Source of the DNA: Euglena gracilis
Lineage: Eukaryota
Length of the DNA: 64,000 nucleotides
Assembly: GCA_039621445.1 (NCBI GenBank)
Contig: CP154954.1
Location: 18,134,589 to 18,198,588 of the forward strand
Reading direction: 5' to 3'
Shown here: in pieces, positions 2,483 to 64,000 of the stretch
Numbering within the stretch: position 1 is the first letter of the stretch
Layout of the letters: each line of letters begins with the position of its first letter
The notes under the pieces: model-generated
Database searches by the model: none
Told to the model about the DNA's origin: nothing
Seen by the model: the letters and a program-made list of their open reading frames with translations, nothing else
Made by a program: the position numbers and the translations under genes

Positions 2483-2739
2483 TTTTCTGCACACAAATCG
2501 TGGCTGAGCCCAGATTTCAGCTTGAAAACGTGTTCCGCAGGGGGGCCCCCTGAACACGTTTTCAGGCTGAAATCTGGGCTCAGCCACAATTTGGTTAAAA
2601 ACGTGTTCAGAGCCCGCCAAATGCCTGCCTTGAAATTCTGATCATGATTCACGCCAAGGGAAAAAAAACGCGAAAATGTGAAATTCGGACCGAAAAAAGA
2701 GCGCCATAATGGAAAACATGCCTTGCCACAGATGCCCTA
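2483..2739 (-). mobile_element. Hairpin end of the Helentron-like family (hairpin, subterminal IR, minisatellite), cut at a TA
   Basis: ~45-bp-arm hairpin (~2492-2592) and adjacent sequence match the reverse complement of ~60825-61095. Confidence 0.8.
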
Positions 2740-2763
2740 CCATGCCCCCCCCCATATAAGACC
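2740..2763 (+). mobile_element. TA-flanked terminal repeat CCATGCCCCCCCCCATATAAGACC (Tc1/mariner-like)
   Basis: Follows TA at 2738-2739. A partner copy follows TA at 26213-26214, and similar TA|CCATRCCCC termini bound 35649-35972. Confidence 0.65.
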
Positions 2764-9400: not shown

Positions 9401-12400
9401 GTCCCCCCCCCCCCCGAGCTATTCCCATAGGGGGGACGGGAATAGCTCACTGTCATAGCACTTTTTATAAAGAACTTCCCAAAAAAGTGCTCAAAAATCG
9501 ACGTTTTTGGGACAGCCATAGAAAAGGAAAGGTCTCCCCCCTCAGTTCTTAGTCTATGTCCTTAGTCCGTTCTGGGCAAAATTTTTTTCGATTTTTTTTC
9601 GACTTTTTTGACCCATGATGCCCTTCCTGGGTCATGATGCGCATCATAGGTCATGATGGGCATCATGGCCATCACGGGTCATGATGGCCATGATGGTCGA
9701 AAAACGCCCATTTTCGGCTCGAAAACCCTTTTTCCGGGTCCGGGAGGCCCAAAAGCATGGTTTTGGGGAAAAAATTTTTCGATATTTTTCGCCTTTTTTG
9801 GCCGAAAGTCCACCAGTGGAAAAAGTGTACAAAATGGCCAAAATCGGCCGAAAAACGGCCGTATCTCGGGCTACGCGAACAGTTGTGGGAAAATCAAAAT
9901 ACCAGTGGATGGGGCGTTCCAACAAGGGCTTCAAATTTGGTCTCTGGACATTTCCTTTGATTTTGCTTCATTTTGGAGATATTTTAAAAACGTGTTCAGC
10001 CCGCCAAATGCCTGCCCTGAAATTCGTGGTCATGAACACGTTTTCCATGAGGGCATCTGTGGCAATGACACGTTTTCCATTAAGGCATCTGTGGTCAGGC
10101 ACGTTTTCCATTAAGGCATCTGTGGCAATGACACGTTTTCCATTAGGGCATCTGTGGCAATGGCATGTTTTCCATTAGGGCATCTGTGGCAACGGCACGT
10201 TTTCCATTAGGGCATCTGTGGCAATCACGTGTCGTCCGAAATCGTCCGAAAATGCATTTTGCGAAATCGATCGACGATCGCGAGCGGATCTCTGGCTGTG
10301 AAAGTTGTTCAGGAACAAACTCACCCCTCGATCGAAAACTCTTTTCATCAGACGACTAGTGGTGACGACCAAATTCAGCCACGCCGCTTGGTACTCTTAC
10401 CATCCCCCCCCCCCGAGCTGTTCCCCCCCCCCCGAGCTATTCCCATAGGGGGGACGGGAATAGCTCACTGTCATAGCACTTTTTATAAAGAACTTCCCAA
10501 AAAAGTGCTCAAAAATCGACGTTTTTGGGACAGCCATAGAAAAGGAAAGGTCTCCCCCCTCAGTTCTTAGTCTATGTCCTTAGTCCGTTCTGGGCAAATT
10601 TTTTTTCGATTTTTTTTCGACTTTTTTGACCCATGATGCCCTTCCTGGGTCATGATGCGCATCATAGGTCATGATGGGCATCATGGCCATCACGGGTCAT
10701 GATGGCCATGATGGTCGAAAAACGCCCATTTTCGGCTCGAAAACCCTTTTTCCGGGTCCGGGAGGCCCAAAAGCATGGTTTTGGGTAAAAAATTTTTCGA
10801 TATTTTTCGCCTTTTTTGGCCGAAAGTCCACCAGTGGAAAAAGTGTACAAAATGGCCAAAATCGGCCGAAAAACGGCCGTATCTCGGGCTACGCGAACAG
10901 TTGCGGGAAAATCAAAATACCAGTGGATGGGGCGTTCCAACAAGGGCTTCAAATTTGGTCTCTGGACATTTCCTTTGATTTTGCTTCATTTTGGAGATAT
11001 TTTAAAAACGTGTTCAGCCCGCCAAATGCCTGCCCTGAAATTCGTGGTCATGAACACGTTTTCCATGAGGGCATCTGTGGCAATGACACGTTTTCCATTA
11101 AGGCATCTGTGGTCAGGCACGTTTTCCATTAAGGCATCTGTGGCAATGACACGTTTTCCATTAGGGCATCTGTGGCAATGGCATGTTTTCCATTAGGGCA
11201 TCTGTGGCAACGGCACGTTTTCCATTAGGGCATCTGTGGCAATCACGTGTCGTCCGAAATCGTCCGAAAATGCATTTTGCGAAATCGATCGACGATCGCG
11301 AGCGGATCTCTGGCTGTGAAAGTTGTTCAGGAACAAACTCACCCCTCGATCGAAAACTCTTTTCATCAGACGACTAGTGGTGACGACCAAATTCAGCCCC
11401 GCCGCCTTGTTCCCTTCCCACCCCCCCCCCCCCCCCGAGCTGTTCCCCCCCCCCCGAGCTATTCCCATAGGGGGGACGGGAATAGCTCACTGTCATAGCA
11501 CTTTTTATAAAGAACTTCCCAAAAAAGTGCTCAAAAATCGACGTTTTTGGGACAGCCATAGAAAAGGAAAGGTCTCCCCCCTCAGTTCTTAGTCTATGTC
11601 CTTAGTCCGTTCTGGGCAAAATTTTTTTTCGATTTTTTTTCGACTTTTTTGACCCATGATGCCCTTCCTGGGTCATGATGCGCATCATAGGTCATGATGG
11701 GCATCATGGCCATCACGGGTCATGATGGCCATGATGGTCGAAAAACGCCCATTTTCGGCTCGAAAAACCCTTTTTTCCGGGTCCGGGAGGCCCAAAAGCA
11801 TGGTTTTGGGGAAAAATTTTTTCGATATTTTTCGCCTTTTTTGGCCGAAAGTCCACCAGTGGAAAAAGTGTACAAAATGGCCAAAATCGGCCGAAAAACG
11901 GCCGTATCTCGGGCTACGCGAACAGTTGTGGGAAAATCAAAATACCAGTGGATGGGGCGTTCCAACAAGGGCTTCAAATTTGGTCTCTGGACATTTCCTT
12001 TGATTTTGCTTCATTTTGGAGATATTTTAAAAACGTGTTCAGCCCGCCAAATGCCTGCCCTGAAATTCGTGGTCATGAACACGTTTTCCATGAGGGCATC
12101 TGTGGCAATGACACGTTTTCCATTAAGGCATCTGTGGTCAGGCACGTTTTCCATTAAGGCATCTGTGGCAATGACACGTTTTCCATTAGGGCATCTGTGG
12201 CAATGGCATGTTTTCCATTAGGGCATCTGTGGCAACGGCACGTTTTCCATTAGGGCATCTGTGGCAATCACGTGTCGTCCGAAATCGTCCGAAAATGCAT
12301 TTTGCGAAATCGATCGACGATCGCGAGCGGATCTCTGGCTGTGAAAGTTGTTCAGGAACAAACTCACCCCTCGATCGAAAACTCTTTTCATCAGACGACT

Positions 12401-15400
12401 AGTGGTGACGACCAAATTCAGCCACGCCGCTTGGTACTCTTACCATCCCCCCCCCGAGCTATTCCCATAGGGGGGACGGGAATAGCTCACTGTCATAGCA
12501 CTTTTTATAAAGAACTTCCCAAAAAAGTGCTCAAAAATCGACGTTTTTGGGACAGCCATAGAAAAGGAAAGGTCTCCCCCCTCAGTTCTTAGTCTATGTC
12601 CTTAGTCCGTTCTGGGCAAATTTTTTTTCGATTTTTTTTCGACTTTTTTGACCCATGATGCCCTTCCTGGGTCATGATGCGCATCATAGGTCATGATGGG
12701 CATCATGGCCATCACGGGTCATGATGGCCATGATGGTTGAAAAACGCCCATTTTCGGCTCGAAAACCCTTTTTCCGGGTCCGGGAGGCCCAAAAGCATGG
12801 TTTTGGGTAAAAAATTTTTCGATATTTTTCGCCTTTTTTGGCCGAAAGTCCACCAGTGGAAAAAGTGTACAAAATGGCCAAAATCGGCCGAAAAACGGCC
12901 GTATCTCGGGCTACGCGAACAGTTGCGGGAAAATCAAAATACCAGTGGATGGGGCGTTCCAACAAGGGCTTCAAATTTGGTCTCTGGACATTTCCTTTGA
13001 TTTTGCTTCATTTTGGAGATATTTTAAAAACGTGTTCAGCCCGCCAAATGCCTGCCCTGAAATTCGTGGTCATGAACACGTTTTCCATGAGGGCATCTGT
13101 GGCAATGACACGTTTTCCATTAAGGCATCTGTGGTCAGGCACGTTTTCCATTAAGGCATCTGTGGCAATGACACGTTTTCCATTAGGGCATCTGTGGCAA
13201 TGGCATGTTTTCCATTAGGGCATCTGTGGCAACGGCACGTTTTCCATTAGGGCATCTGTGGCAATCACGTGTCGTCCGAAATCGTCCGAAAATGCATTTT
13301 GCGAAATCGATCGACGATCGCGAGCGGATCTCTGGCTGTGAAAGTTGTTCAGGAACAAACTCACCCCTCGATCGAAAACTCTTTTCATCAGACGACTAGT
13401 GGTGACGACCAAATTCAGCCACGCCGCTTGGTACTCTTACCATCCCCCCCCCCCCCGAGCTGTCCCCCCCCCCCGAGCTATTCCCATAGGGGGGACGGGA
13501 ATAGCTCACTGTCATAGCACTTTTTATAAAGAACTTCCCAAAAAAGTGCTCAAAAATCGACGTTTTTGGGACAGCCATAGAAAAGGAAAGGTCTCCCCCC
13601 TCAGTTCTTAGTCTATGTCCTTAGTCCGTTCTGGGCAAAATTTTTTTTCGATTTTTTTTCGACTTTTTTGACCCATGATGCCCTTCCTGGGTCATGATGC
13701 GCATCATAGGTCATGATGGGCATCATGGCCATCACGGGTCATGATGGCCATGATGGTCGAAAAACGCCCATTTTCGGCTCGAAAACCCTTTTTTCGGGTC
13801 CGGGAGGCCCAAAAGCATGGTTTTGGGGAAAAAATTTTTCGATATTTTTCGCCTTTTTTGGCCGAAAGTCCACCAGTGGAAAAAGTGTACAAAATGGCCA
13901 AAATCGGCCGAAAAACGGCCGTATCTCGGGCTACGCGAACAGTTGTGGGAAAATCAAAATACCAGTGGATGGGGCGTTCCAACAAGGGCTTCAAATTTGG
14001 TCTCTGGACATTTCCTTTGATTTTGCTTCATTTTGGAGATATTTTAAAAACGTGTTCAGCCCGCCAAATGCCTGCCCTGAAATTCGTGGTCATGAACACG
14101 TTTTCCATGAGGGCATCTGTGGCAATGACACGTTTTCCATTAAGGCATCTGTGGTCAGGCACGTTTTCCATTAAGGCATCTGTGGCAATGACACGTTTTC
14201 CATTAGGGCATCTGTGGCAATGGCATGTTTTCCATTAGGGCATCTGTGGCAACGGCACGTTTTCCATTAGGGCATCTGTGGCAATCACGTGTCGTCCGAA
14301 ATCGTCCGAAAATGCATTTTGCGAAATCGATCGACGATCGCGAGCGGATCTCTGGCTGTGAAAGTTGTTCAGGAACAAACTCACCCCTCGATCGAAAACT
14401 CTTTTCATCAGACGACTAGTGGTGACGACCAAATTCAGCCACGCCGCTTGGTACTCTTACCATCCCCCCCCCCCCGAGCCCCCCCCCCCCCCCCCCCCAG
14501 CTATTCCCATAGGGGGGACGGGAATAGCTCACTGTCATGGACATTTTTATAAAGAACTTCCCAAAAAAGTGCTCAAAAATCGACGTTTTTGGGACAGCCA
14601 TAGAAAAGGAAAGGTCTCCCCCCTCAGTTCTTAGTCTATGTCCTTAGTCCGTTCTGGGCAAATTTTTTTTCGATTTTTTTTTCGACTTTTTTGACCCATG
14701 ATGCCCTTCCTGGGTCATGATGCGCATCATAGGTCATGATGGGCATCATGGCCATCACGGGTCATGATGGCCATGATGGTTGAAAAACGCCCATTTTCGG
14801 CTCGAAAACCCTTTTTCCGGGTCCGGGAGGCCCAAAAGCATGGTTTTGGGTAAAAAATTTTTCGATATATTTCGCACTTATTGGCCGAAAGTCCACCAGT
14901 GGAAAAAGTGTACAAAATGGCCAAAATCGGCCGAAAAACGGCCGTATCTCGGGCTACGCGAACAGTTGCGGGAAAATCAAAATACCAGTGGATGGGGCGT
15001 TCCAACAAGGGCTTCAAATTTGGTCTCTGGACATTTCCTTTGATTTTGCTTCATTTTGGAGATATTTTAAAAACGTGTTCAGCCCGCCAAATGCCTGCCC
15101 TGAAATTCGTGGTCATGAACACGTTTTCCATGAGGGCATCTGTGGCAATGACACGTTTTCCATTAAGGCATCTGTGGTCAGGCACGTTTTCCATTAAGGC
15201 ATCTGTGGCAATGACACGTTTTCCATTAGGGCATCTGTGGCAACGGCACGTTTTCCATTAGGGCATCTGCTGCAATCACGTGTCGTCCGAAATCGTCCGA
15301 AAATGCATTTTGCGAAATCGATCGACGATCGCGAGCGGATCTCTGGCTGTGAAAGTTGTTCAGGAACAAACTCACCCCTCGATCGAAAACTCTTTTCATC

Positions 15401-18400
15401 AGACGACTAGTGGTGACGACCAAATTCAGCCACGCCGCTTGGTACTCTTCCCCTCCCCCCCCCCCCCGAGCTGTTCCCCCCCCCCGAGCTATTCCCATAG
15501 GGGGAATAGGTATGTATATGTATATGTATATGTATATGTGTATATGTGCATATGTGGCCAGTGTATCTCTGGGGGGGTATTGAAGTGGACCCTTGGTTTG
15601 GCACGGCACCCTGGGGTTAGTGAAGGTGTAGGATCGGCCGGTCGGATTTCGCCCGCCTGCACTGCAAATCCCACCACCTTCTTTTTCAGAGTCACTCCAG
15701 AGGCAAATCACTGTCATAGCACTTTTTATAAAGAACTTCCCAAAAAAGTGCTCAAAAATCGACGTTTTTGGGACAGCCATAGAAAAGGAAAGGTCTCCCC
15801 CCTTAGTTCTTAGTCTATGTCCTTAGTCCGTTCTGGGCAAATTTTTTTTTCGATTTTTTTTCGACTTTTTTGACCCATGATGCCCTTCCTGGGTCATGAT
15901 GCGCATCATAGGTCATGATGGGCATCATGGCCATCACAGGTCATGATGGCCATGATGGTCGAAAAACGCCCATTTTCGGCTCGAAAACCCTTTTTCCGGG
16001 TCCGGGAGGCCAAAAAGCATGGTTTTGGGTAAAAAATTTTTCGATATTTTTCGCCTTTTTTGGCCGAAAGTCCACCAGTGGAAAAAGTGTACAAAATGGC
16101 CAAAATCGGCCGAAAAACGGCCGTATCTCGGGCTACGCGAACAGTTGCGGGAAAATCAAAATACCAGTGGATGGGGCGTTCCAACAAGGGCTTCAAATTT
16201 GGTCTCTGGACATTTCCTTTGATTTTGCTTCATTTTGGAGATATTTTAAAAACGTGTTCAGCCCGCCAAATGCCTGCCCTGAAATTCGTGGTCATGAACA
16301 CGTTTTCCATGAGGGCATCTGTGGCAATGACACGTTTTCCATTAAGGCATCTGTGGTCAGGCACGTTTTCCATTAAGGCATCTGTGGCAATGACACGTTT
16401 TCCATTAGGGCATCTGTGGCAATGGCATGTTTTCCATTAGGGCATCTGTGGCAACGGCACGTTTTCCATTAGGGCATCTGTGGCAATCACGTGTCGTCCG
16501 AAATCGTCCGAAAATGCATTTTGCGAAATCGATCGACGATCGCGAGCGGATCTCTGGCTGTGAAAGTTGTTCAGGAACAAACTCACCCCTCGATCGAAAA
16601 CTCTTTTCATCAGACGACTAGTGGTGACGACCAAATTCAGCCACGCCGCTTGGTACTCTTACCATTCCCCCCCCCCCCCGAGCTGTCCCCCCCACACCCC
16701 CCGAGCTATTCCACTAGGAAGGACGGGAATAGCTCACTGTCATAGCACTTTTTATAAAGAACTTCCCAAAAAAGTGCTCAAAAATCGACGTTTTTGGGAC
16801 AGCCATAGAAAAGGAAAGGTCTCCCCCCTCAGTTCTTAGTCTATGTCCTTAGTCCGTTCTGGGCAAAATTTTTTTCGATTTTTTTTCGACTTTTTTGACC
16901 CATGATGCCCTTCCTGGGTCATGATGCGCATCATAGGTCATGATGGGCATCATGGCCATCACGGGTCATGATGGCCATGATGGTCGAAAAACGCCCATTT
17001 TCGGCTCGAAAACCCTTTTTCCGGGTCCGGGAGGCCCAAAAGCATGGTTTTGGGGAAAAAATTTTTCGATATTTTTCGCCTTTTTTGGCCGAAAGTCCAG
17101 TGGAAAAAGTGTACAAAATGGCCAAAATCGGCCGAAAAACGGCCGTATCTCGGGCTACGCGAACAGTTGTGGGAAAATCAAAATACCAGTGGATGGGGCG
17201 TTCCAACAAGGGCTTCAAATTTGGTCTCTGGACATTTCCTTTGATTTTGCTTCATTTTGGAGATATTTTAAAAACGTGTTCAGCCCGCCAAATGCCTGCC
17301 CTGAAATTCGTGGTCATGAACACGTTTTCCATGAGGGCATCTGTGGCAATGACACGTTTTCCATTAAGGCATCTGTGGTCAGGCACGTTTTCCATTAAGG
17401 CATCTGTGGCAATGACACGTTTTCCATTAGGGCATCTGTGGCAATGGCATGTTTTCCATTAGGGCATCTGTGGCAACGGCACGTTTTCCATTAGGGCATC
17501 TGTGGCAATCACGTGTCGTCCGAAATCGTCCGAAAATGCATTTTGCGAAATCGATCGACGATCGCGAGCGGATCTCTGGCTGTGAAAGTTGTTCAGGAAC
17601 AAACTCACCCCTCGATCGAAAACTCTTTTCATCAGACGACTAGTGGTGACGACCAAATTCAGCCACGCCGCTTGGTACTCTTACCATCCCCCCCCCCGAG
17701 CTGTTCCCCCCCCCCCCCGAGCTATTCCCATAGGGGGGACGGGAATAGCTCACTGTCATAGCACTTTTTATAAAGAACTTCCCAAAAAAGTGCTCAAAAA
17801 TCGACGTTTTTGGGACAGCCATAGAAAAGGAAAGGTCTCCCCCTCAGTTCTTAGTCTATGTCCTTAGTCCGTTCTGGGCAAATTTTTTTCGGGTTTTTTT
17901 TCGACTTTTTTGACCCATGATGCCCTTCCTGGGTCATGATGCGCATCATAGGTCATGATGGGCATCATGGCCATCACGGGTCATGATGGCCATGATGGTT
18001 GAAAAACGCCCATTTTCGGCTCGAAAACCCTTTTTCCGGGTCCGGGAGGCCCAAAAGCATGGTTTTGGGTAAAAATTTTTCGATATTTTTCGCCTTTTTT
18101 GGCCGAAAGTCCACCAGTGGAAAAAGTGTACAAAATGGCCAAAATCGGCCGAAAAACGGCCGTATCTCGGGCTACGCGAACAGTTGCGGGAAAATCAAAA
18201 TACCAGTGGATGGGGCGTTCCAACAAGGGCTTCAAATTTGGTCTCTGGACATTTCCTTTGATTTTGCTTCATTTTGGAGATATTTTAAAAACGTGTTCAG
18301 CCCGCCAAATGCCTGCCCTGAAATTCGTGGTCATGAACACGTTTTCCATGAGGGCATCTGTGGCAATGACACGTTTTCCATTAAGGCATCTGTGGCAATG

Positions 18401-21400
18401 ACACGTTTTCCATTAGGGCATCTGTGGCAATGGCATGTTTTCCATTAGGGCATCTGTGGCAACGGCACGTTTTCCATTAGGGCATCTGTGGCAATCACGT
18501 GTCGTCCGAAATCGTCCGAAAATGCATTTTGCGAAATCGATCGACGATCGCGAGCGGATCTCTGGCTGTGAAAGTTGTTCAGGAACAAACTCACCCCTCG
18601 ATCGAAAACTCTTTTCATCAGACGACTAGTGGTGACGACCAAATTCAGCCACGCCGCTTGGTACTCTTCCCAACCCCCCCCCCCCCCGAGCTGTTCCCCC
18701 CCCCCCCGAGCTATTCCCATAGGGGGAATAGGTATGTATATGTATATGTATATGTGTATATGTGCATATGTGGCCAGTGTATCTCTGGGGGGGTATTGAA
18801 GTGGACCCTTGGTTTGGCACGGCACCCTGGGGTTAGTGAAGGTGTAGGATCGGCCGGTCGGATTTCGCCCGCCTGCACTGCAAATCCCACCACCTTCTTT
18901 TTCAGAGTCACTCCAGAGGCAAATCACTGTCATAGCACTTTTTATAAAGAACTTCCCAAAAAAGTGCTCAAAAATCGACGTTTTTGGGACAGCCATAGAA
19001 AAGGAAAGGTCTCCCCCCTTAGTTCTTAGTCTATGTCCTTAGTCCGTTCTGGGCAAATTTTTTTTTCGATTTTTTTTCGACTTTTTTGACCCATGATGCC
19101 CTTCCTGGGTCATGATGCGCATCATAGGTCATGATGGGCATCATGGCCATCACGGGTCATGATGGCCATGATGGTCGAAAAACGCCCATTTTCGGCTCGA
19201 AAACCCTTTTTCCGGGTCCGGGAGGCCCAAAAGCATGGTTTTGGGTAAAAAATTTTTCGATATTTTTCGCCTTTTTTGGCCGAAAGTCCACCAGTGGAAA
19301 AAGTGTACAAAATGGCCAAAATCGGCCGAAAAACGGCCGTATCTCGGGCTACGCGAACAGTTGCGGGAAAATCAAAATACCAGTGGATGGGGCGTTCCAA
19401 CAAGGGCTTCAAATTTGGTCTCTGGACATTTCCTTTGATTTTGCTTCATTTTGGAGATATTTTAAAAACGTGTTCAGCCCGCCAAATGCCTGCCCTGAAA
19501 TTCGTGGTCATGAACACGTTTTCCATGAGGGCATCTGTGGCAATGACACGTTTTCCATTAAGGCATCTGTGGTCAGGCACGTTTTCCATTAAGGCATCTG
19601 TGGCAATGACACGTTTTCCATTAGGGCATCTGTGGCAATGGCATGTTTTCCATTAGGGCATCTGTGGCAACGGCACGTTTTCCATTAGGGCATCTGTGGC
19701 AATCACGTGTCGTCCGAAATCGTCCGAAAATGCATTTTGCGAAATCGATCGACGATCGCGAGCGGATCTCTGGCTGTGAAAGTTGTTCAGGAACAAACTC
19801 ACCCCTCGATCGAAAACTCTTTTCATCAGACGACTAGTGGTGACGACCAAATTCAGCCACGCCGCTTGGTACTCTTCCCACCCCCCCCCCCCCCGAGCTG
19901 TTCCCCCCCCCCCCCGAGCTATTCCCATAGGGGGGACGGGAATAGCTCACTGTCATAGCACTTTTTATAAAGAACTTCCCAAAAAAGTGCTCAAAAATCG
20001 ACGTTTTTGGGACAGCCATAGAAAAGGAAAGGTCTCCCCCCTCAGTTCTTAGTCTATGTCCTTAGTCCGTTCTGGGCAAATTTTTTTTCGATTTTTTTTC
20101 GACTTTTTTGACCCATGATGCCCTTCCTGGGTCATGATGCGCATCATAGGTCATGATGGGCATCATGGCCATCACGGGTCATGATGGCCATGATGGTTGA
20201 AAAACGCCCATTTTCGGCTCGAAAACCCTTTTTCCGGGTCCGGGAGGCCCAAAAGCATGGTTTTGGGTAAAAATTTTTCGATATTTTTCGCCTTTTTTGG
20301 CCGAAAGTCCACCAGTGGAAAAAGTGTACAAAATGGCCAAAATCGGCCGAAAAACGGCCGTATCTCGGGCTACGCGAACAGTTGCGGGAAAATCAAAATA
20401 CCAGTGGATGGGGCGTTCCAACAAGGGCTTCAAATTTGGTCTCTGGACATTTCCTTTGATTTTGCTTCATTTTGGAGATATTTTAAAAACGTGTTCAGCC
20501 CGCCAAATGCCTGCCCTGAAATTCGTGGTCATGAACACGTTTTCCATGAGGGCATCTGTGGCAATGACACGTTTTCCATTAAGGCATCTGTGGCAATGAC
20601 ACGTTTTCCATTAGGGCATCTGTGGCAATGGCATGTTTTCCATTAGGGCATCTGTGGCAACGGCACGTTTTCCATTAGGGCATCTGTGGCAATCACGTGT
20701 CGTCCGAAATCGTCCGAAAATGCATTTTGCGAAATCGATCGACGATCGCGAGCGGATCTCTGGCTGTGAAAGTTGTTCAGGAACAAACTCACCCCTCGAT
20801 CGAAAACTCTTTTCATCAGACGACTAGTGGTGACGACCAAATTCAGCCACGCCGCTTGGTACTCTTACCATCCCCCCCCCCCCCGAGCTGTTCCCCCCCC
20901 CCCGAGCTATTCCCATAGGGGGAATAGGTATGTATATGTATATGTATATGTGTATATGTGCATATGTGGCCAGTGTATCTCTGGGGGGGTATTGAAGTGG
21001 ACCCTTGGTTTGGCACGGCACCCTGGGGTTAGTGAAGGTGTAGGATCGGCCGGTCGGATTTCGCCCGCCTGCACTGCAAATCCCACCACCTTCTTTTTCA
21101 GAGTCACTCCAGAGGCAAATCACTGTCATAGCACTTTTTATAAAGAACTTCCCAAAAAAGTGCTCAAAAATCGACGTTTTTGGGACAGCCATAGAAAAGG
21201 AAAGGTCTCCCCCCTTAGTTCTTAGTCTATGTCCTTAGTCCGTTCTGGGCAAATTTTTTTTTCGATTTTTTTTCGACTTTTTTGACCCATGATGCCCTTC
21301 CTGGGTCATGATGCGCATCATAGGTCATGATGGGCATCATGGCCATCACGGGTCATGATGGCCATGATGGTCGAAAAACGCCCATTTTCGGCTCGAAAAC

Positions 21401-22248
21401 CCTTTTTTTTTTTTTTTTAGGCCCAAAAGCATGGTTTTGGGTAAAAAATTTTTCGATATTTTTCGCCTTTTTTGGCCGAAAGTCCACCAGTGGAAAAAGT
21501 GTACAAAATGGCCAAAATCGGCCGAAAAACGGCCGTATCTCGGGCTACGCGAACAGTTGCGGGAAAATCAAAATACCAGTGGATGGGGCGTTCCAACAAG
21601 GGCTTCAAATTTGGTCTCTGGACATTTCCTTTGATTTTGCTTCATTTTGGAGATATTTTAAAAACGTGTTCAGCCCGCCAAATGCCTGCCCTGAAATTCG
21701 TGGTCATGAACACGTTTTCCATGAGGGCATCTGTGGCAATGACACGTTTTCCATTAAGGCATCTGTGGTCAGGCACGTTTTCCATTAAGGCATCTGTGGC
21801 AATGACACGTTTTCCATTAGGGCATCTGTGGCAATGGCATGTTTTCCATTAGGGCATCTGTGGCAACGGCACGTTTTCCATTAGGGCATCTGTGGCAATC
21901 ACGTGTCGTCCGAAATCGTCCGAAAATGCATTTTGCGAAATCGATCGACGATCGCGAGCGGATCTCTGGCTGTGAAAGTTGTTCAGGAACAAACTCACCC
22001 CTCGATCGAAAACTCTTTTCATCAGACGACTAGTGGTGACGACCAAATTCAGCCACGCCGCTTGGTACTCTTACCACCCCCCCCCCCCCCCCCCGAGCTA
22101 TTCCCATAGGGGGGACGGGAATAGCTCACTGTCATAGCACTTTTTATAAAGAACTTCCCAAAAAAGTGCTCAAAAATCGACGTTTTTGGGACAGCCATAG
22201 AAAAGGAAAGGTCTCCCCCCTTAGTTCTTGTTCTATGTCCTTAGTCCA
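3437..22248. repeat. Tandem array of 18 near-identical ~1.02-kb units (three ~1.17-kb variants)
   Basis: Unit start CCGTTCTGGGCAA at about 3437, 4461, 5480, 6499, 7527, 8548, 9567, 10585, 11607, 12607, 13626, 14649, 15828, 16854, 17869, 19044, 20067 and 21240. Each unit holds 5-6 copies of a 32-bp minisatellite (GACACGTTTTCCATTAGGGCATCTGTGGCAAT). Confidence 0.97.
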
Positions 22249-22496
22249 AAGAGGACACAAATTGTTTGGTTTCAGCAAATCCATTCAGAAGGGGGAAAAT
22301 ACACAAGGCAATGCATTTTAGGTCCACATTGAGGGGAAACGGGCTGGCCCAGCAGTCCAACTGCAAAGAAACATCGGACACTTTTTCAGATTTGGGGAGT
22401 TGGATCCAATGTGCACAACGTAAAGCTATCTAACCGGTATAAAATGAACTCTGGAACGGTTCAAGAATCGAGGGGTGGTACCTTTGCCGGCCTGGA

Positions 22497-24566: not shown

Positions 24567-24679
24567 AATAATCCGCAATGAGCCCAACGTTAGGGTACCA
24601 AGTTACCCCTCGATCGAAAGCTCTTTTCAACAGACGGCCAGCGGTGGTCATCAGATTTTTCCACGCTTCACGGTGCTCA

Positions 24680-25098
24680 CAAAGTTTGCCGTGCGTTTAG
24701 GTATGGGGGGAGGGGTAACACGTTTTCCATTAGGGCATCTGTGGCAATGACACGTTTTCCATTAAGGCATCTGTGGTCAGGCACGTTTTCCATTAAGGCA
24801 TCTGTGGCAATGACACATCTTCCATTAAGGCATCTGTGGTCAGGCACGTTTTCCATTAGGGCGCCGTTTTTTGGGTCTGAATTTCATATTTTCGCGTTAT
24901 TTATTTTCGCCTTGCGTGACTCATGACCATGAATTTCAGGGCAGGCATTTGGCGGGCTCTGAACACGTTTTTAAACAAATTGTGGTTGAGCCCAGATTTC
25001 AGCCTGAAAACGTGTTCAGGGGGTCCCCTTCAGGAGCCCCCTCCTGAACACGTTTTCAGGCTGAAATCTGGGCTCAGCCACAATTTGTGTGTAGAAAA
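24680..25098 (+). mobile_element. Hairpin end of the Helentron-like family
   Basis: 32-bp minisatellite, subterminal IR ending GAACACGTTTTTAA, hairpin ~24975-25088 and terminal GTGTAGAAAA; colinear with 60720-61095. Confidence 0.85.
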
Positions 25099-25449
25099 TT
25101 GACATTTTTTGGCCGAAATGGCAGAGTCCAAAGGGGGGGGGGGGCGGGCCAATCCTACCCAGTTTGGACCCCTTCGCGCGTGAATAACTCGGGCCTGGCG
25201 GGGAGTTGGGGGTCAAACCCAGGTTTTCAGAAAATTCAGAAACTAGAAATCCAGTCGCTCGCGACTGAAAATTTTTTTTTCCGGAACGGGGCCGGGATCA
25301 TGGTGATAATCCGCCGGTTCCCGAGGTGGCCCTGAGGGGGGGGGGGTCGGGGGGGGGGTCCCCCGGTGGTAAGCTTCGCTCTTACCCTAAAGGGATAAGA
25401 GCTCAGGGACCCCCCATATAAGACCCCCTGGGATTTTGGCTCCCGAGGG

Positions 25450-26665: not shown

Positions 26666-26687
26666 CATGCCCCCCCCATATAAGACC

Positions 26688-27113
26688 GCACCTTGCTGGC
26701 ACAGGGCAACACGAAGAAAAAGTCTGGCTCCGTAGGTGCAGAGCTTGCTGTTGCCAACTGTTTGGAGTTCGCCAAACTGTGTCAACATCGGCAAGCATCT
26801 TATCCTGAGCTGGATGATTTCTTTGTTGCCTTGACGAGATGGGAGCTGGAACCCAGCCTGTTGTTCGATGAGGCGAGCGTCATTGAACAATGTGTGGCTC
26901 AATGTGAGCAGCAGTCGGGAACTATGTTCGTTTCAGGGAATCGTTCACAACCTCTTTTCATACATACGTGAATGCCCTCGCTCGGGCATTCCGCAAAACC
27001 ACGACCGAGGGAGTTGTGTTGCCTTCTGCAGAGTGTTTACAGATGCCCTAATGGAAAACGTGTTCATGATCACGAATTTCAGGGCAGGCATTTGGCGGGC
27101 TGAACACATTTTT
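26688..27113 (-). mobile_element. Remaining piece of the split Helentron-like copy (middle of the PHD ORF on the plus strand, plus terminal IR)
   Basis: Plus strand encodes LLAQGNTKKKSGSVGAELAVANCLEFAKLCQHRQASYPELDDFFV...EQQSG, as in 60615-60385; ends GGCGGGCTGAACACATTTTTAA. Confidence 0.8.
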
Positions 27114-27739
27114 AACAAGTCGGTTGCTTTGAGTCCAGAAACCAAACACCCCATAAAGCCGCGTTTCTGGACTCAAGGCAGACCGACTTATGGGGGGGGG
27201 GGGAAGGTCGAAGCGAACAAGTGCCGATTTTTCAGCTGTTTTCTTGGAGGGTGCCAGATTCTAAAATTTGGTTGAAAATGGGGGGAGATCGGGATGGCGC
27301 TGTATTGCTGTCTGTTTTCCCCGTTCAGGGTGGCATTTCCTGTCCTTTCTTGACCCCTGAAACCGTGTATGGGGGCTCCACCCAAACCGGTGTCCCAGAC
27401 ACCGGTTCGGGTGGGGCGAGGTACGCGGGGGACGTCCAGGCGATTGGCTTCTGTGATCGTTGCGGCTGTGGCACAACAGTGCTTGCCTAGCATTTCCTCC
27501 ACTCATTCATGCATTCATGTCCCTGTTCTTTGGAAATGACTCCCAGCCAGGGACACAGACCCGGGCGGGAAATTTCTGCTCGAGTCTGTGCCCCAGACAC
27601 AGGCTCGGGCGTGAGTCTAGAGACTCAAAAAATGTGTCCCAGACGCTGGTTCAGGTGTGAAGGCGTGGACACATTAATTGATCAATTGGGTTGATTGATT
27701 CATTGATTAACTGATTGAGTTTCACCTTCTCAGGGCATC

Positions 27740-58300: not shown

Positions 58301-61300
58301 AAAATCAGACAAAGGAGACCAGGCAGTAGACTTTGGTCATTTTGACCCCCCCTCCCCCCCCCCCTATGGTGAAGTTCACCGTTTGAAAGTTCACCGGGGG
58401 GTTCCGGACCCCCTCCCCCCCCCCTCTGCCTAACCCATCGGTGAACTTCACTGGTGAAGTTCACCAAGAGAGTACTTTTTTGGCCAAAAATGGCCAAAAA
58501 TGGCATTTTGGGCAAGTTTTTGGAAATTTCGCTAAAATTCCATGAAGCATCAACCTCAAAATGACCATTTTGAGAGGAAAGGAACAAAATTTTACCCATG
58601 AAAATTTCACCCCCAACCATCAAAACGGTGAAGTTCACCGGTGAACTTCACCGGTGAACTTCACCGCCGAAAGTACCCCCCCCTCCCCCCCGGTGAATGT
58701 TCACCGGTGAACTCTCACCGGGGGGTCCACAGCCCCCCCCCCACCCCTGCCTAACCTCCAAAGGTGCTGAACACCTCCCCCATCTGACCAATGCAGGGTG
58801 GGGGGATGTTGACCATTGAAAATTCCCAAATAAGATAATTTATCACTAAATTAATTATTATTATGGAATAAAACTATGTTAGAAAATGCTCTTTTCCAAA
58901 TCGAATCTGGAATCAAGGGAAATGCATTCAGAGAATAGTGGTCTCTTTAGGAAGGAAAAATATTATTGGAGATTTTTTTTGCAACAATTTCTCCACCCAG
59001 GGAGAGAGTCCTCCAACTGGTGGATGTTGAACAAACTCCTCTGAAAAAAAAGTTGGAGAAATTAACCAAAAAATTGAGGGTTCGTTAGAAACCCAACATT
59101 GGCCTGCCATATGCCGGCATTCTCTTTTAGCCGTGGCCAGAACGTGCCCTGAAGACCTCAACCATGTTGCTGATGAAACCAGCACTTCATTTTGGTTACA
59201 TTCTCATTAATTCACAATTATTTGGAAGAGTTGTGTTGTGCTGTGTGCGGGGCAGGCAAGAGTGGGCAGACCCAACCGTGGGATATCGAATCGTGAGGGA
59301 TGAAGGTCGATGCCAAGCAGCTCTTGAGCAACGGTATCTTTTGGGCAACAAAACCATCCAATGACTCAAAGGAAGAACTTTGACAAAAACCTTCCAGACA
59401 TTATCCCTTTTCCCAAAGACCCTCCAAAGCTCTTCGGGTATCCCCAAAATCCAGCATTCAAACAAAGCATCGTGCTGCGTTTCCCCACTCCATCAAAATC
59501 AGCTAATCACCGTTCCCCCGGAATGAATTGGTTCTGCCCAGGTTGGGTGACGTCAGGCACACTTGGGCGTAGGCAAGCACCCCACTCCCTTGCACCATCA
59601 AAGACACCTCCGTCATCTCCATCTCCCCCTCCGACAATCGTGCATCGAACTGTTCTATCGCTTCACTCAAACACAGGGTGGAGAATTGGGAGTTCAAGCG
59701 CATGTGCAGAATCCATTTAACATCCAAGAGATTGATTTGATGAAGAAACTGTATGAAGATTATGTCACAAAAAACTAAATTGGTGTGTGACATATTCACT
59801 TTCTTCATGTCATTAAAAACGTGTTCAGCCCGCCAAATGCCTGCCCTGAAATTCGTGGTCATGAACACGTTTTCCATGAGGGCATTTGTGGCAATGACAC
59901 GTTTTCCATTATGGCATCTGTGGCATTGACACGTTTTCCATTAGGGCATCTGTGGCAATGACACATTTTCCATTACGGCATCTGTGGCATTGCATTAGGG
60001 CATCTGTGGCAATGACACGTTTTCCATTACGGCATCTGTGGCAATCAAGTGTAAGATGGAAAAAACGCTAGCATGAAAATTCGGCGACAAGTTGAGAGGC
60101 CAGGGTGGTCCTCAACGGGCGAGGCGGGTCGGGGGCACTCTACAACACAAGAAACGACCAGAAGTTGCCTTGGAGCACAACGACAAGCAGTGGGAGACGT
60201 CACGGAAGACGACACGCTTTACACACAAAAAAGAGCCATACTTTGGTGGCCGCCGCAAATCTTAGCAATGAAAATGATATGCCAAACCGCAGGCGTCACA
60301 CACAACTTTGTTCAGCTCGACATAATTTGGATTTTTGGGAATGGCAACACCACAAAAACCACATTTGTCCTGTTGTATAGGCAGTCCCGACTGCTGCTCA
60401 CGTTGAGCCACACATTGTTCAATGACGCTCGCCTCATCGAACAACAGGCTGGGTTCCAGCTCCCATCCCGTCCAGGCAACAAAGAAATCATCCAGCTCAG
60501 GATAAGATGCTTGCCGATGTTGACACAGTTTGGCGAACTCCAAACAGTTGGCAACAGCAGCAAGCTCTGCACCTACGGTGCCAGACTTTTTCTTCGTGTT
60601 GCCCTGTGCCAGCAAGGGGCCATGAAGGGGGTCAACCTTCGGCTTCTTGGCATCTTGCTGGTATACCGCAAGAGCAGCCAGGAACAGTTCCGCCCTGGGG
60701 GGAGGTGGCAAAAGACCATTCACGAAGTTTGCCGTGCGTTTAGCCATAGTGGGAGGGCTGCTAAAAAAGGGGGGGTAACACGTTTTCCATCACGGCATCT
60801 GTGGCAATGACACGTTTTCCATTACGGCATCTGTGGTAAGGCACGTTTTCCATTAAGGCTCCTTTTTTTCGGTCCAAATTTCACATTTTCGCGATTTTTT
60901 TTTCCCTTGGCGTGAATCATGACCACGAATTTCAGGGCAGGCATTTGGCGGGCTCTGAACACGTTTTTAAACAAATTGTGGCTGAGCCCAGATTTCAGCC
61001 TGAAAACGTGTTCAGGGGGCCCCCTTCGGGGGCCCCCCTGCTGAACATGTTTTTAGGCTGAATTTGTTTTTAGGCCACAATTTGTGTGTAGAAAAATGTG
61101 TGGAAAATGGGTAAAATAACTCGTTCACTGGGCTCCATGCAGAGCAGAGGGTGACAATCGGAAAGAATGTGGCGGCAACACACCCATGGAATGATTCACT
61201 TCAACCTGTACATCAACAATTGCACAATGTTCTGTACTACGACGTCCATGGAGTCCCGTGTCGTGCTCTTCAGCAGGTCCACAGAGGACGTCATGAGGTC

Positions 61301-61356: not shown

Positions 61357-62245
61357 TGTGGCAGAGATGAGTGACACTTCCAGTATTAATCGGTTGAGCA
61401 ACATCTTATAACAAATATTGAACTGCACAATAAACTTAACAAAACTCAAAAAAAACAACTTTTGTCTGGAGTGCGTCAGCCATTGCGTTCCTCGAAAGAT
61501 AAAAGTAAACGTGTTCCATGCCAGGTTTGGAGTAGACGTTTTGGGGGGGGTTAGGGACCCACATTTGGGGGGGGGGTCAATTTTTGGTGAAATATTTTGG
61601 GTGCTTCGTGCCGAAAATAGAGACCTCTCCCCTTCAGAGGGTGCCCACTTGGCCCGACCTACTGGGTGGGAATACCCACCCAGTAACCCCACGTGGGTGA
61701 TCAAAATTTTTTATTTCTATTCTCTTTGGCTGAACGACCCATTGCATTTTAAAGCCACTAGTATGGGTCAAGGGATGAAGCCACTGCCAACGAACAATAG
61801 AGAAATTGCGGATTGCAGTATGCATTTCCCCCCCTTGCATTCTCAGGGCCCTGCCAAGGTACAAGGGTCAGAACAAAGGTGAATGAGATTCGGAACTCCA
61901 TTGAAAGAGACTGATGGGAGGAAATAAAAGATGGTGGGAAATTCAAAAATACTTGGACACATAACAATTTGAGTATAAACCGATCAAAATAAGAATGTTA
62001 CTAGCTCGAGTGAGCACTTTGAGGGGGCCCAGGTCCCATATTTGGGGTCATCTATGCGTGTGTCTGCGTGCGTTTGCATGACAGGAATGGCCCATCCCAC
62101 ATTAATGTCCGCCCTCCTACAGGGTATCACTGCGGACTACCTCAGAAGGCACAGTCACATGGTGAGGTCGTGGCCCAGCACGATGCTTGGTGGAAGACCG
62201 GCACATGGTGTTTGGCATTATTATTCAACCGAATGATGAAACTTT

Positions 62246-62700: not shown

Positions 62701-63023
62701 TGGGTGCCAAAAAGGGGTTTGGTTGTCCAAATGGAAGGTGGGGTGAGGACAATTCTTTTCTGTTTTTTTGGGGGGTGATCTTCCACACAAATCTCATGTC
62801 CCCTCCCCCCTTCTTGCCATGAAATTCTTTCCTACTTGCACAATATCCTCTTTTGCCAATGGACATATTTTGGGCCAAATTGACACAAATAAAAAAAATT
62901 AAATTCCTACACCAAAAAAGCGCCCTTGTTTGGGTCGAAAATTTTTTCACCTCAAATCTTGGCATTTCCTTCCATTTTTTGACCATGTGAAAGCAAATTT
63001 TCGCTGGTTTCTGATACGAAAAT

Positions 63024-63135
63024 TGTGTCCAGAACGCCGGTTCGGGCGTGAAGCCGTGTTCCAGAACGAACGGGCGGCAGCCCGAACCGGCGTTCTGGAA
63101 CACGGCTTCACGCCCGAACCGGCGTTCTGGACACA
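63024..63135. repeat. Hairpin with 45-bp perfect arms
   Basis: TGTGTCCAGAACGCCGGTTCGGGCGTGAAGCCGTGTTCCAGAACG and its exact reverse complement ending at 63135. Confidence 0.92.
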
Positions 63136-63230
63136 GTTGTTGAAACCGTGTATTAGGGGCTCTGGCTTCCCGCCCGTTCATGGACGCATGGTCATTTGTG
63201 TTGTGACTCCTCTATGCAGATTTCTTCTAA

Positions 63231-63590
63231 ATGAACGCCGGTCAGGTTGCTACCGTTTGCACCAGTGCACTGCCCCAACCCCCCACACCAGCTGAATTCT
63301 TTGCTGGCCTTGAGGCTGCCGACGCACCTCGGAAAACAGCAGAAGGCCATAAAAAAAATTTTTGGGGATACGTTTGTCGACAGTTGCCCCACTGGTGGAT
63401 TGGCAAAAAACAAAATAGTGGCTCTTGCAGTTGCGCGGGATTTCCAAAAGGTTTGCGAACTACGTGGGGCAACGTTTGACTTTCTGGATGACTGGCTGGT
63501 GGCATTTGCCTTCTGGACGGTAAAAGTCACGTGCCTTTTTGATCACGGTGACGAGAAGCAACAGGCAGCCGCCGTCCAGCGAAACAAAAA
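63231..63590 (+). pseudogene. Frameshifted distant homolog of the element-borne ORF at 60200-60747
   Basis: LPQPPTPAEFFAGL ~ LPPPPRAELFLAAL; DFQKVCELRGATFDFLDDWLVAFAFWTVKVTCLFD ~ EFAKLCQHRQASYPELDDFFVAWTGWELEPSLLFD. Confidence 0.7.
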
Positions 63591-64000
63591 CCAAAACAAA
63601 AAGCGTAACAGTGCAATCAACAGAATGCCAAGCAACCGCTCCGGGAGCAGCTTATGCTGCCCCGTGACAACCCCAAAATTTGTGGGGTGGAGACATGGCA
63701 GCGGCAACTGGCACTGCTGCCAGATGCCGCTAATCCCTCCTTACCATTCTGGTGCTCCTGCAAAATTATCTGCAAAATTCCGGTCCCGTCAAGGCATAGT
63801 GGGCCGGCCTGTTTTTTTTGACGTTGTTTTGTTTTGTTTTTTTAATTTTAACAATGTTTTTTTTAAAAAAAACAAAAAAACGCCCACTAGGTTTTGCATG
63901 GAAAATTTTTTGAATGAACATTTTCAATCATTTTTGGCAATTTCTGGGTAATTTCTGCCAAAAACTTCCTTCCACAAAAATGAAAAAAAAGTCATAAAAT

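What the first reader, a model, noticed from the sequence alone, without database searches (positions are those of the whole stretch)
59815..61095. Hairpin-ended Helentron-like element that carries its own small PHD-finger gene
Seen: asymmetric ends (a terminal IR that also folds back on TGAACACGTTTT about 35 nt inside; a partner IR placed before a ~45-bp-arm hairpin; TT before the element; no TSD), 32-bp minisatellites, and an uninterrupted-looking ~180-codon ORF (helical domain + C4HC3 PHD finger) starting beside the minisatellite and reading away from the hairpin. Pieces of the same ORF occur in other copies (25450-25570, 26690-26920, trace at ~24680). Established: this end structure matches Helitron2/Helentron/DINE-1 elements, and PHD fingers commonly read histone H3 tails. 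Inference: a rolling-circle transposon family with a dedicated chromatin-reader accessory gene (targeting or anti-silencing); I do not recognise the protein.
Basis: partly seen in the sequence, partly recalled or inferred. Interest (0 to 1): 0.85.

Follow-up and report, generated by a model that had tools for sequence, protein, structure and literature searches.

The report
Hairpin-ended transposon built around a tyrosine recombinase
This 1.3-kb repeat is a dead copy of a very abundant mobile element whose small gene is the DNA-binding front end of a Cre-like tyrosine recombinase joined to a PHD zinc finger, so the element probably moves by site-specific recombination, not by the rolling-circle route first proposed.

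Summary
There is a 52-54-nt inverted repeat, two 32-bp minisatellites, a 45-49-nt-arm palindrome with a 14-nt tail, TT at the left edge and no target duplication.

The ORF needs correction. In this copy it stops after 161 codons inside the zinc finger (TAA plus two extra bases). Reads from the same species show nearly all other copies have a Gln codon there, and over half lack the extra bases, giving 181 codons ending in a C4HC3 PHD-type finger.

The "unrecognised helical domain" is now recognised. It has 65 relatives. The full-length ones (about 400-490 aa) fold like Cre/Xer/Tn1549 tyrosine recombinases (VIA Z 18.6).

Three observations tie the recombinase to the element. Another copy in the window continues into the recombinase body. 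A second, diverged family at 63.0-63.8 kb shows the same tail-palindrome-repeat-recombinase layout. No Rep/helicase was found.

The Helentron assignment is therefore not supported. The end geometry fits Helitron2/Helentron and a DIRS-type internal complementary region equally well.

Best reading: a non-autonomous, thousands-of-copies derivative of an undescribed tyrosine-recombinase transposon lineage. Its closest named relative is a Euglena gracilis transcript. Mobility mechanism and ORF function remain inferred.

The parts
59813..59864 (+). Left terminal segment 'a' (TT + AAAAACGTGTTCAG...), one arm of the long inverted repeat
   Evidence: RNA loose ends begin at 59813 (table 7)
59862..59879 (+). 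Fold-back partner of the left tip (inverted copy of the 13-nt motif, 1 mismatch)
59865..60045 (+). 32-bp minisatellite, 6.0 copies; each unit carries a degenerate copy of the terminal motif
60200..60384 (-). PHD-finger module. In this copy it is broken by TAA at 60262-60264 and by 2 extra bases near 60221. The family-wide stop lies at 60200-60202
60385..60747 (-). [quoted passage not shown]
60778..60859 (+). Second 32-bp minisatellite, 2.6 copies, same orientation as the first
60917..61022 (+). Internal segment (inverted repeat a' plus left palindrome arm). It is the reverse complement of the element's two ends joined, apart from the 14-nt tail
60971..61085 (+). Palindrome; each arm holds one copy of the 13-nt motif
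61086..61099 (+). Right terminal tail shared by the 3 right ends in the window
26681..27115 (+). Reversed sister copy. Its N-domain (from aa 43) runs on, after a frameshift, into the next conserved recombinase helix instead of the PHD module, then into one minisatellite unit and the left end
24677..25098 (+). Right-end fragment with the best-kept palindrome (49-nt arms, 96%)
2483..2740 (-). Right-end fragment, reversed
3437..22250 (+). Tandem array of 18 units (about 1019-1179 bp). Each holds a solo left end plus minisatellite but no right end
63010..63800 (+). Second, diverged family: tail, 48-nt-arm palindrome (63021-63138), repeat-like segment, then a frameshifted recombinase remnant from ATG 63231

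Best explanation
The stretch 59813-61099 is a dead, non-autonomous copy of a very abundant transposon family. The family's own gene is a Cre-like tyrosine recombinase.

Shown:
- The internal ORF is an in-frame fusion of the first ~121 residues of that recombinase (the start of its N-terminal DNA-binding domain) to a ~60-residue PHD-type finger.
- The recombinase part after residue ~121 is missing.
- The junction (60385/60386) is the same point at which two other arrangements in the genome diverge, with a 2-nt overlap.

Inferred:
- Full-length relatives elsewhere in the genome supply the recombinase in trans.
- The recombinase recognises the 13-nt motif AAAACGTGTTCAG. This motif sits at the left tip, in the fold-back partner, at the inner repeat and in both palindrome arms, and occurs in degenerate form in every minisatellite unit.
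- The two ends are brought together. The joined ends plus the internal complement form a palindrome of about 2 x 105 nt.
- Strand exchange then excises and inserts the element without a target duplication.

Open: whether this happens on DNA alone (Crypton or conjugative-transposon style) or on a cDNA whose ends are rebuilt on the internal complement (DIRS style).

The fusion protein lacks the catalytic domain. If made, it could only bind. The most likely roles are occupying the element's own sites as a regulator, or tethering them to chromatin through the finger.
For: Recombinase identity:
- 65 of 66 library hits match ORF residues 1-~125 (E down to 3e-26).
- The long hits share Arg, Lys, Arg-Arg and Tyr columns (invariant in 6 of 6).
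- The P0021 model has pLDDT 83.9.
- The listed Foldseek PDB hits at E<=1e-3 (43 in all) are tyrosine recombinases.
- VIA-align gives Cre Z 18.6 with 289 residues aligned, model 25-420 against Cre 23-337, so both domains match.
- The nearest ESM-Atlas cluster is eukaryotic ALOG + Phage_integrase, score 0.98.

The gene belongs to the element:
- Copy 26681-27033 continues into the next conserved recombinase helix (56% identity to P0025 124-148).
- 19 contigs of run X1 show that same continuation at 60385.
- The second family at 63.0-63.8 kb is not alignable by blastn. Yet its tail, palindrome and repeat segment align colinearly with family 1: score 52 against 20 +/- 3 for shuffles, maximum 33-37. 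A recombinase remnant starts 92 nt after its palindrome.

Sites: the 13-mer occurs 49 times in the window against 0.11 expected, all inside family copies, and 5 times in this copy.

Abundance: summed DNA word depth is 2.6e5-9.4e5 over the ORF, against 44 and 103 in the flanks.

PHD module:
- The C4HC3 spacing is complete in P0001.
- Pfam PHD_2 E 7e-4 and PHD E 5e-3, both below the curated cut-offs.
- All ten best named ESM clusters are PHD families.
- The same N-domain + PHD order occurs in the diverged P0059, whose finger is 21/50 identical to P0001's (E 2e-11).
Against: - No full-length autonomous copy with these ends was seen, so the link between recombinase and mobility is by association.
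- No genome is held for this window, and both metagenome scans found nothing.
- No empty site or circle junction was recovered from two DNA runs.
- Known DNA-only tyrosine-recombinase transposons (Cryptons) lack inverted repeats (passages of PMC13465315).
- DIRS elements carry their ORFs on the strand that puts the internal complement near the 3' end. Here the ORF is on the other strand.
- The end anatomy resembles HINE/DINE-1 point for point: subterminal repeat, nearby fold-back, central tandem repeats, 3' palindrome and TT (passages of PMC4067079).
- The box-II His of classical recombinases is not conserved in this family (Lys/Asp instead), so catalytic competence is unproven.
- The N-domain model on its own has no significant structural match.
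Confidence: 0.65

Rival explanations
1. Helentron/Helitron2-type rolling-circle element. Its internal region happens to hold a captured fragment of a tyrosine-recombinase gene fused to a PHD exon. A Rep/helicase encoded elsewhere nicks at the TT-flanked 5' end and terminates at the 3' palindrome.
For: - The layout matches published HINE/DINE-1 features: subterminal inverted repeats, a short fold-back beside the 5' repeat, central tandem repeats, a 3' palindrome a few nt from the end, a TT preference and no duplication (passages of PMC4067079).
- The two minisatellites are in direct, not inverted, orientation, so the element is strand-asymmetric.
- Helitron-like elements are known for gene capture (recalled).
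Against: - No Rep/helicase in 29 long ORFs of the window.
- Two families too diverged for blastn both place a recombinase start just inside the palindrome. This argues for inheritance, not two captures.
- The repeat (52-54 nt) and palindrome arms (45-49 nt) are several times longer than the published 12-15 bp and 5-10 bp.
- Only 1 of 3 right ends is followed directly by T after the shared tail (2 of 3 if the tail of the complete copy is read one A longer).
- The ORF reads away from the palindrome, whereas most Helentron genes read towards it (passages of PMC4067079).
Confidence: 0.12
2. Non-autonomous DIRS-like retroelement. The element is transcribed and copied into cDNA by a reverse transcriptase supplied in trans. 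The internal segment 60917-61022 acts as an internal complementary region on which the two ends are aligned and joined, and the tyrosine recombinase integrates the circle. This is a special case of the best explanation, listed because it predicts different intermediates.
For: - The internal segment is the reverse complement of the joined ends. In DIRS-1 the ICR is complementary to 33 nt of one end and 55 nt of the other and is essential for mobility (passages of PMC7192593).
- The nearest ESM-Atlas cluster is the ALOG + integrase class, which was derived from DIRS1-type elements (passages of PMC3537659).
- DIRS-like elements are reported in Euglena gracilis (passages of bioRxiv 10.64898/2026.05.21.726589).
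- The family is transcribed at a low level on both strands.
Against: - No RT/RNase H in the window's long ORFs and none in the 66 relatives (contigs up to 2.9 kb).
- The ORF lies on the strand opposite to that expected from DIRS-1.
- There are no long inverted LTRs: the two true termini share only the 13-nt motif.
- The deletion junction has neither GT nor AG, so it is not a conventional spliced-RNA copy (read from the sequence).
Confidence: 0.2
3. Cut-and-paste (DDE, piggyBac/Kolobok-like) element running only from repeat to repeat (59813-60970). The TTAA on each side would be a target duplication, and the palindrome a separate neighbouring repeat.
For: The 16-nt perfect repeat tips begin and end with TTAA (59813-59816 and 60967-60970).
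Against: - 3 of 3 right ends carry the same palindrome and tail, while the 3 kinds of left flank differ.
- Family 2 has the same palindrome-then-repeat order.
- The coding remnant is a recombinase, not a DDE transposase.
- No DDE domain was found in the window's long ORFs.
Confidence: 0.04

Closest known systems
Helentron non-autonomous elements (HINE, DINE-1) and Helitron2
   Same: Asymmetric ends: a terminal repeat whose partner lies just before a 3' palindrome, a short fold-back beside the 5' repeat, internal tandem repeats, TT at the boundary, no target duplication, very high copy number (passages of PMC4067079).
   Different: The repeat and palindrome are 4-9 times longer. The coding remnant is a tyrosine recombinase, not Rep/helicase. 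The ORF reads away from the palindrome. No Rep/helicase was seen.
DIRS-1-type tyrosine-recombinase retrotransposons
   Same: Tyrosine recombinase; an internal segment exactly complementary to the two joined extremities (ICR geometry); no target duplication (passages of PMC7192593 and PMC13465315).
   Different: No RT/RNase H or methyltransferase was seen. There are no long inverted LTRs. Here the internal complement abuts the right end, so the two form a hairpin. The gene is on the opposite strand.
Cryptons (DNA transposons with a tyrosine recombinase only)
   Same: A small element whose only recognisable enzyme is a tyrosine recombinase. The relatives are single ~400-490-aa proteins on contigs of up to 2.9 kb.
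   Different: Cryptons are described as lacking inverted repeats and as flanked by 4-6-bp direct repeats (passages of PMC13465315). This element has a 52-nt inverted repeat, a terminal palindrome and no flanking repeat.
ALOG-domain proteins (stand-alone N-terminal DNA-binding domain of DIRS1-type recombinases)
   Same: A recombinase N-terminal DNA-binding domain living on without the catalytic domain (abstract and passages of PMC3537659). The nearest ESM-Atlas cluster carries ALOG + Phage_integrase.
   Different: No Pfam ALOG hit was found. Here the domain is cut after ~121 residues, fused to a PHD finger and still inside a transposon.
Cre, XerH/XerA, Tn1549 and lambda integrases
   Same: Two-domain fold of the full-length relatives (VIA Z 18.6-13), and short inverted binding motifs flanking a spacer.
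   Different: About 12-14% sequence identity; an extra ~60-residue N-terminal elaboration; the box-II His is not conserved.

Membership tests
Helentron / HINE (rolling-circle) | Autonomous partner encodes Rep/helicase (+ endonuclease) | tested here: inconclusive
   None in 29 long ORFs of the window. The internal remnant is a tyrosine recombinase. The genome could not be searched.
Helentron / HINE (rolling-circle) | 12-15-bp subterminal inverted repeats, 2-4 nt from the 5' end and 38-60 bp from the 3' end; a 5-10-bp palindrome 8-35 bp from the 3' end | tested here: inconclusive
   The order of parts is the same. The sizes are not: repeat 52-54 nt at 0-2 nt and 129 nt from the ends; palindrome arms 45-49 nt, 14 nt from the end.
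Helentron / HINE (rolling-circle) | Insertion within TT, no target duplication, confirmed by empty sites | tested here: inconclusive
   TT precedes 3 of 3 kinds of left flank. T directly follows the shared tail in 1 of 3 right ends (2 of 3 if one more A is counted as tail). No duplication at the one complete copy. No empty site in runs X1 and X9.
Tyrosine recombinase superfamily (the encoded protein) | Two-domain Cre/Xer-like fold with catalytic Arg, Lys, Arg and Tyr | tested here: met
   Met for the full-length relatives. The window ORF holds only the first ~121 residues of the N-terminal domain and no catalytic domain.
DIRS-like retrotransposons | Reverse transcriptase / RNase H | tested here: inconclusive
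   Not found in the window's long ORFs or in the relatives' short contigs. An autonomous copy was not available.
DIRS-like retrotransposons | Inverted terminal repeats plus an internal complementary region matching both extremities | tested here: inconclusive
   The internal complement of the joined ends is present. Long inverted terminal repeats are absent, and the true termini share only the 13-nt motif.
Crypton | No inverted repeats; short direct repeats at the insertion | tested here: not met
   A 52-54-nt inverted repeat and a terminal palindrome are present. There is no flanking direct repeat.
PHD finger | C4HC3 ligand pattern and a profile match | tested here: inconclusive
   The pattern is complete in P0001 and in most family copies but truncated in this copy. 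Pfam PHD_2 scores 19.4 bits (cut-off 28) and PHD 17.3 bits (cut-off 24). The ESM-Atlas neighbours are all PHD families.

The most novel reading that the evidence does not exclude
This is an undescribed superfamily of eukaryotic tyrosine-recombinase transposons that has arrived at the same end design as Helitron2/Helentrons: a terminal repeat, its partner, and a terminal palindrome that together mirror the joined ends. Its thousands of short members express a recombinase-DNA-binding-domain-PHD fusion. That protein binds the element's own 13-nt and minisatellite sites and a histone H3 tail state, steering integration or shielding copies from silencing. If so, some 'Helentron-like' repeats classified by end structure alone in poorly studied protists may be recombinase elements.
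Probability: 0.2. Interest if true: 0.8.

Novelty: new variant of a known kind. Interest (0 to 1): 0.55.

Why it matters
Transposons without a recognisable enzyme are usually classified from their ends. Here an end design taken as diagnostic of rolling-circle Helentrons travels with a Cre-like tyrosine recombinase in two diverged families. End geometry alone can therefore misassign a mechanism.

The lineage has relatives in a Euglena gracilis transcriptome and in many unnamed assemblies. Its combination of terminal palindrome, internal complement of the joined ends and 13-nt motif gives a concrete, testable recombination-site model for eukaryotic tyrosine-recombinase elements, whose sites are poorly known.

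The recombinase-DBD-PHD fusion recurs in a diverged relative. It is a candidate transposon-encoded chromatin tether or self-regulator, parallel to the ALOG domain's origin from a recombinase DNA-binding domain.

Tried and rejected
- Own-genome search: no genome is held for this window.
- Word-based protein search with the ORF: only P0001 among 35 candidates.
- Word-based searches with P0001: the PHD part against longer proteins found none; the whole protein found only itself among 135 candidates.
- Profile of the family against PDB sequences: nothing relevant (best E 0.16, a taste receptor).
- Fold searches with the 161-aa ORF model alone: Foldseek best E 3.3, with Cre at rank 3 (E 3.5); VIA wide best Z 5.2, generic helices. 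Neither is informative.
- Metagenome scans: the first alignment was too loose to search with. The six-protein alignment gave 35 pattern matches, none confirmed. The 26-nt repeat pattern gave 0 matches.
- Rfam on 58500-64000: 0 matches.
- Earlier findings of this scan: nothing by place, sequence or words.
- Pfam on the 251-codon antisense frame (60055-60810, + strand): nothing. I take this frame as a by-product of the coding strand.
- I suspected that P0001's N-terminus resembles the N-terminal extension of P0042. BLASTP does not support this (E 3.4-6), so the idea is dropped.
- I looked for a circle or head-to-tail junction among the joints. None is among the 15 of 47 joints shown, which proves nothing.
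- Literature searches for a tyrosine-recombinase element with a palindrome or PHD finger in euglenids returned no such description. Only the open-access library was searched, and supplements were closed.
Full report
WHAT IS THERE

The window is eukaryote-like, repeat-rich DNA, and no genome is held for it.

- A long inverted repeat: 59827-59864 pairs with 60917-60954 (38 nt, 100%) and 59813-59828 with 60955-60970 (16 nt, 100%).
- A weak fold-back of the left tip on 59862-59879 (DNA fold z -2.8).
- Two 32-bp minisatellites in the same orientation: 59865-60045 (6.0 copies) and 60778-60859 (2.6 copies).
- A palindrome at 60971-61085 (z -10.1, 0 of 200 shuffles fold as well).

The window holds three right ends: 2483-2740 (reversed), 24708-25098 and 60779-61099. 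All three keep the repeat, the palindrome and a ~14-nt tail, and diverge only after the tail. The three kinds of left flank differ from each other, and each ends in TT before AAAAACG. So the palindrome is part of the mobile unit, the unit runs from about 59813 to 61099, and the one complete copy has no target duplication.

A 13-nt motif (AAAACGTGTTCAG, up to 1 mismatch) occurs 49 times in the window against 0.11 expected. Every occurrence lies inside a copy of this family. This copy has five: the left tip, the fold-back partner, the inner repeat and both palindrome arms.

THE ORF

On the minus strand an ATG at 60747 opens 161 codons, which end at TAA 60262-60264. The zinc finger is cut after its sixth ligand (C-x2-C-x17-C-x2-C-x4-H-x2-C).

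Protein P0001 (196 aa, from an unnamed JGI contig) matches ORF residues 120-161 at 38 of 42 positions. It then runs on through a Gln, 13 more residues and a final C-x2-C.

I laid two RNA and two DNA runs of the same species label on 59100-61800. The results were:
- At 60264 essentially all DNA depth and 53 of 54 RNA reads carry G, which makes a Gln codon on the coding strand.
- 54-63% of the DNA depth lacks two bases near 60221.

So this copy carries a private stop and a frameshift. The family at large has a 181-codon frame that ends three codons after a complete C4HC3 finger.

The finger scores below Pfam's cut-offs: PHD_2 E 7e-4 and PHD E 5e-3 on P0001. The truncated form gives only Prok-RING_1 at E 0.057. 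The ligand spacing and all ten best named ESM-Atlas neighbours are PHD families.

ABUNDANCE AND EXPRESSION

Summed contig word depth over the ORF is 2.6e5-5.4e5 in run X9 and 5.1e5-9.4e5 in X1. The single-copy flanks give 44 and 103. The tool warns that this measure is not a copy number, but it points to thousands of copy-equivalents and rules out a single-copy host gene.

RNA coverage is low. 334 reads of X21 and 243 of X24 were laid, from about 5-6% of each run, and 308 and 195 of them fit only partly. Reads fall on both strands. In the stranded run X24 most first mates lie on the + strand. The neighbouring exon at 61193-61374 also has only + first mates, and its plausible frame is on the minus strand. 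From this I infer that most element RNA is sense to the ORF.

WHAT THE 'HELICAL DOMAIN' IS

A full HMMER scan of 1.84 billion representatives found 66 proteins at E<=1e-3, of which 33 reach E<=1e-10. Sixty-five match ORF residues 1 to about 125, at 28-51% identity; the other is P0001, through the finger.

The long members are 377-491 aa. They share conserved blocks after the N-domain, including invariant Arg, Lys-Asn, Lys-Asp-x-x-Arg-Arg and Tyr columns in 6 of 6 full-length sequences.

An AlphaFold model of P0021, built with 24 sequences, has pLDDT 83.9. Its structural matches are:
- Foldseek gives 43 PDB hits at E<=1e-3. Those listed are tyrosine recombinases: Cre, XerH, XerA, and the Tn1549 and integron integrases.
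- VIA-align gives Cre Z 18.6, rmsd 5.9 and 289 aligned residues, model 25-420 against Cre 23-337, so both domains match.

The nearest ESM-Atlas cluster is a eukaryotic ALOG + Phage_integrase family, score 0.98. That is a lead only, because Pfam found no ALOG hit.

The ORF's own model is a confident helical domain over residues 1-120 (pLDDT 86-97), with the cut finger unfolded. On its own it finds no significant structural match. The assignment therefore rests on sequence homology to proteins whose whole fold is Cre-like.

Named relatives are a Euglena gracilis transcript (P0002, 48% identity) and a protein on a 1.9-kb contig filed under the plant Genlisea aurea. I suspect the latter comes from a protist contaminant, but that is my guess.

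IS THE RECOMBINASE THE ELEMENT'S OWN GENE?

Three observations say yes.

First, the reversed sister copy at 26681-27115 carries the N-domain from residue 43. After a frameshift it continues into the next conserved recombinase helix and not into the finger: 56% identity to P0025 124-148, with 12 family members matching. It then jumps to one minisatellite unit and the left end. Nineteen contigs of run X1 show that same continuation at 60385.

Second, 23 contigs of X1 and 13 RNA reads of X24 join the finger module at 60386 to a different upstream sequence. Read in frame, that sequence is P0001's residues just before the finger. Twelve RNA reads also show P0001's own C-terminus and stop (my reading of the loose-end consensus). 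So three arrangements meet within 2 nt of one point, with a 2-nt overlap and no GT/AG. The ORF here is most simply an in-frame deletion or recombination product joining the recombinase front end to a finger module that also exists elsewhere in the genome.

Third, tblastn found a second, much more diverged family member at 63196-63800 (31-35% identity, frameshifted, internally deleted). Ninety-two nt upstream of its ATG lies a 48-nt-arm palindrome (98% complementary, z -17). The two families share no blastn hit. Yet their tail, palindrome and repeat segments align colinearly: score 52, against 20 +/- 3 for shuffles with a maximum of 33-37. The palindrome arms differ between families but stay complementary within each. 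Two independent captures of the same gene at the same place beside a palindrome are much less likely than common descent.

Twenty-nine long ORFs elsewhere in the window gave no Rep/helicase, reverse transcriptase or DDE domain.

END GEOMETRY

The internal segment 60917-61022 (inner repeat plus left palindrome arm) is the reverse complement of the element's right end joined to its left end, apart from the 14-nt tail.

Published passages describe subterminal repeats, a nearby fold-back, central tandem repeats, a 3' palindrome and TT (PMC4067079). It is equally the design of the DIRS-1 internal complementary region, which is complementary to 33 nt of one extremity and 55 nt of the other and is essential for mobility (passages of PMC7192593).

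Cryptons, by contrast, are described as lacking inverted repeats (passages of PMC13465315). Geometry therefore does not choose between rolling-circle and recombinase mechanisms; the coding content does.

MECHANISM (INFERRED)

- A full-length recombinase supplied in trans binds the 13-nt motifs.
- The ends are joined or synapsed. The joined ends and the internal complement then form a palindrome of about 2 x 105 nt.
- Strand exchange integrates the element without a duplication.

Whether a cDNA step intervenes is open. Minimal derivatives consisting of little more than the two repeats and the palindrome exist in both DNA runs (joints 59866 to 60923), which suggests the cis requirements lie in the ends.

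The fusion protein has no catalytic domain. It could compete for the sites as a regulator, or tether them to chromatin through the finger.

Evidence that the protein matters is mixed:
- The diverged relative P0059 has the same N-domain-then-finger order. Its finger is 21/50 identical to P0001's (E 2e-11), although its last Cys pair is missing.
- Differences between this copy and the family majority are 9 synonymous to 8 non-synonymous, counting the stop.
- Within the window the counts are 6:4 for one fragment and 0:5 for another.

VERDICT

It is probably wrong about the mechanism: the family belongs with tyrosine-recombinase elements, as a variant that fits none of DIRS, Crypton or Helentron cleanly.
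- I found no description of such an element in the open-access library. Supplements were closed, and Repbase-type libraries could not be consulted.

Noticed in passing
window 3437-22250: Eighteen tandem units of about 1019 bp (some about 1175 bp), 97% alike. Each contains a solo left end of the element plus its minisatellite, but no inner repeat or palindrome. It looks like a macro-satellite seeded by a truncated copy, not head-to-tail whole elements. A related 161-bp repeat precedes it at 2981-3486.
   Followed up: partly
window 1132-1354: A 107-nt-arm palindrome (84% complementary) whose centre is made of degenerate TTAGGG-type telomere-like repeats lying head to head, flanked by inverted unique sequence.
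   Followed up: no
window about 2735-2760, 25405-25425, 26660-26685: The same short motif (a C-run followed by ATATAAGACC) sits at three places where copies of the element are cut off. This suggests the end of another repeat family that inserts into, or recombines with, this one.
   Followed up: no
window 61193-61374 and 22490-22620: A short exon (about 61271-61342 by the RNA loose ends), expressed in RNA and encoding a hydrophobic stretch, recurs in similar form at 22.5 kb. Its DNA depth is 5-40 times that of the flanks. It is either a multi-copy gene family or another repeat. The element lies between this exon and expressed patches at 59191-59736, so it may sit in an intron.
   Followed up: partly
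window 63010-64000: A second, diverged tyrosine-recombinase element (palindrome 63021-63138, frameshifted remnant from 63231, internal deletion). It runs towards the end of the window, and its far end was not seen.
   Followed up: partly
window 24100-24560: Clustered palindromic repeats of a GC-rich unit (GGTCGCTAGCGACC) in inverted arrays beside long G and C runs. Homopolymer G/C runs are frequent throughout the window.
   Followed up: no
protein P0001 (unnamed JGI contig) and loose ends at 60386 and 60223: A 196-aa protein shares only the PHD module with the element's ORF. It is present in many contigs of the DNA runs and in RNA of the same species label. Its 135-residue N-terminal part has no relative in the word-based searches.
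   Followed up: partly
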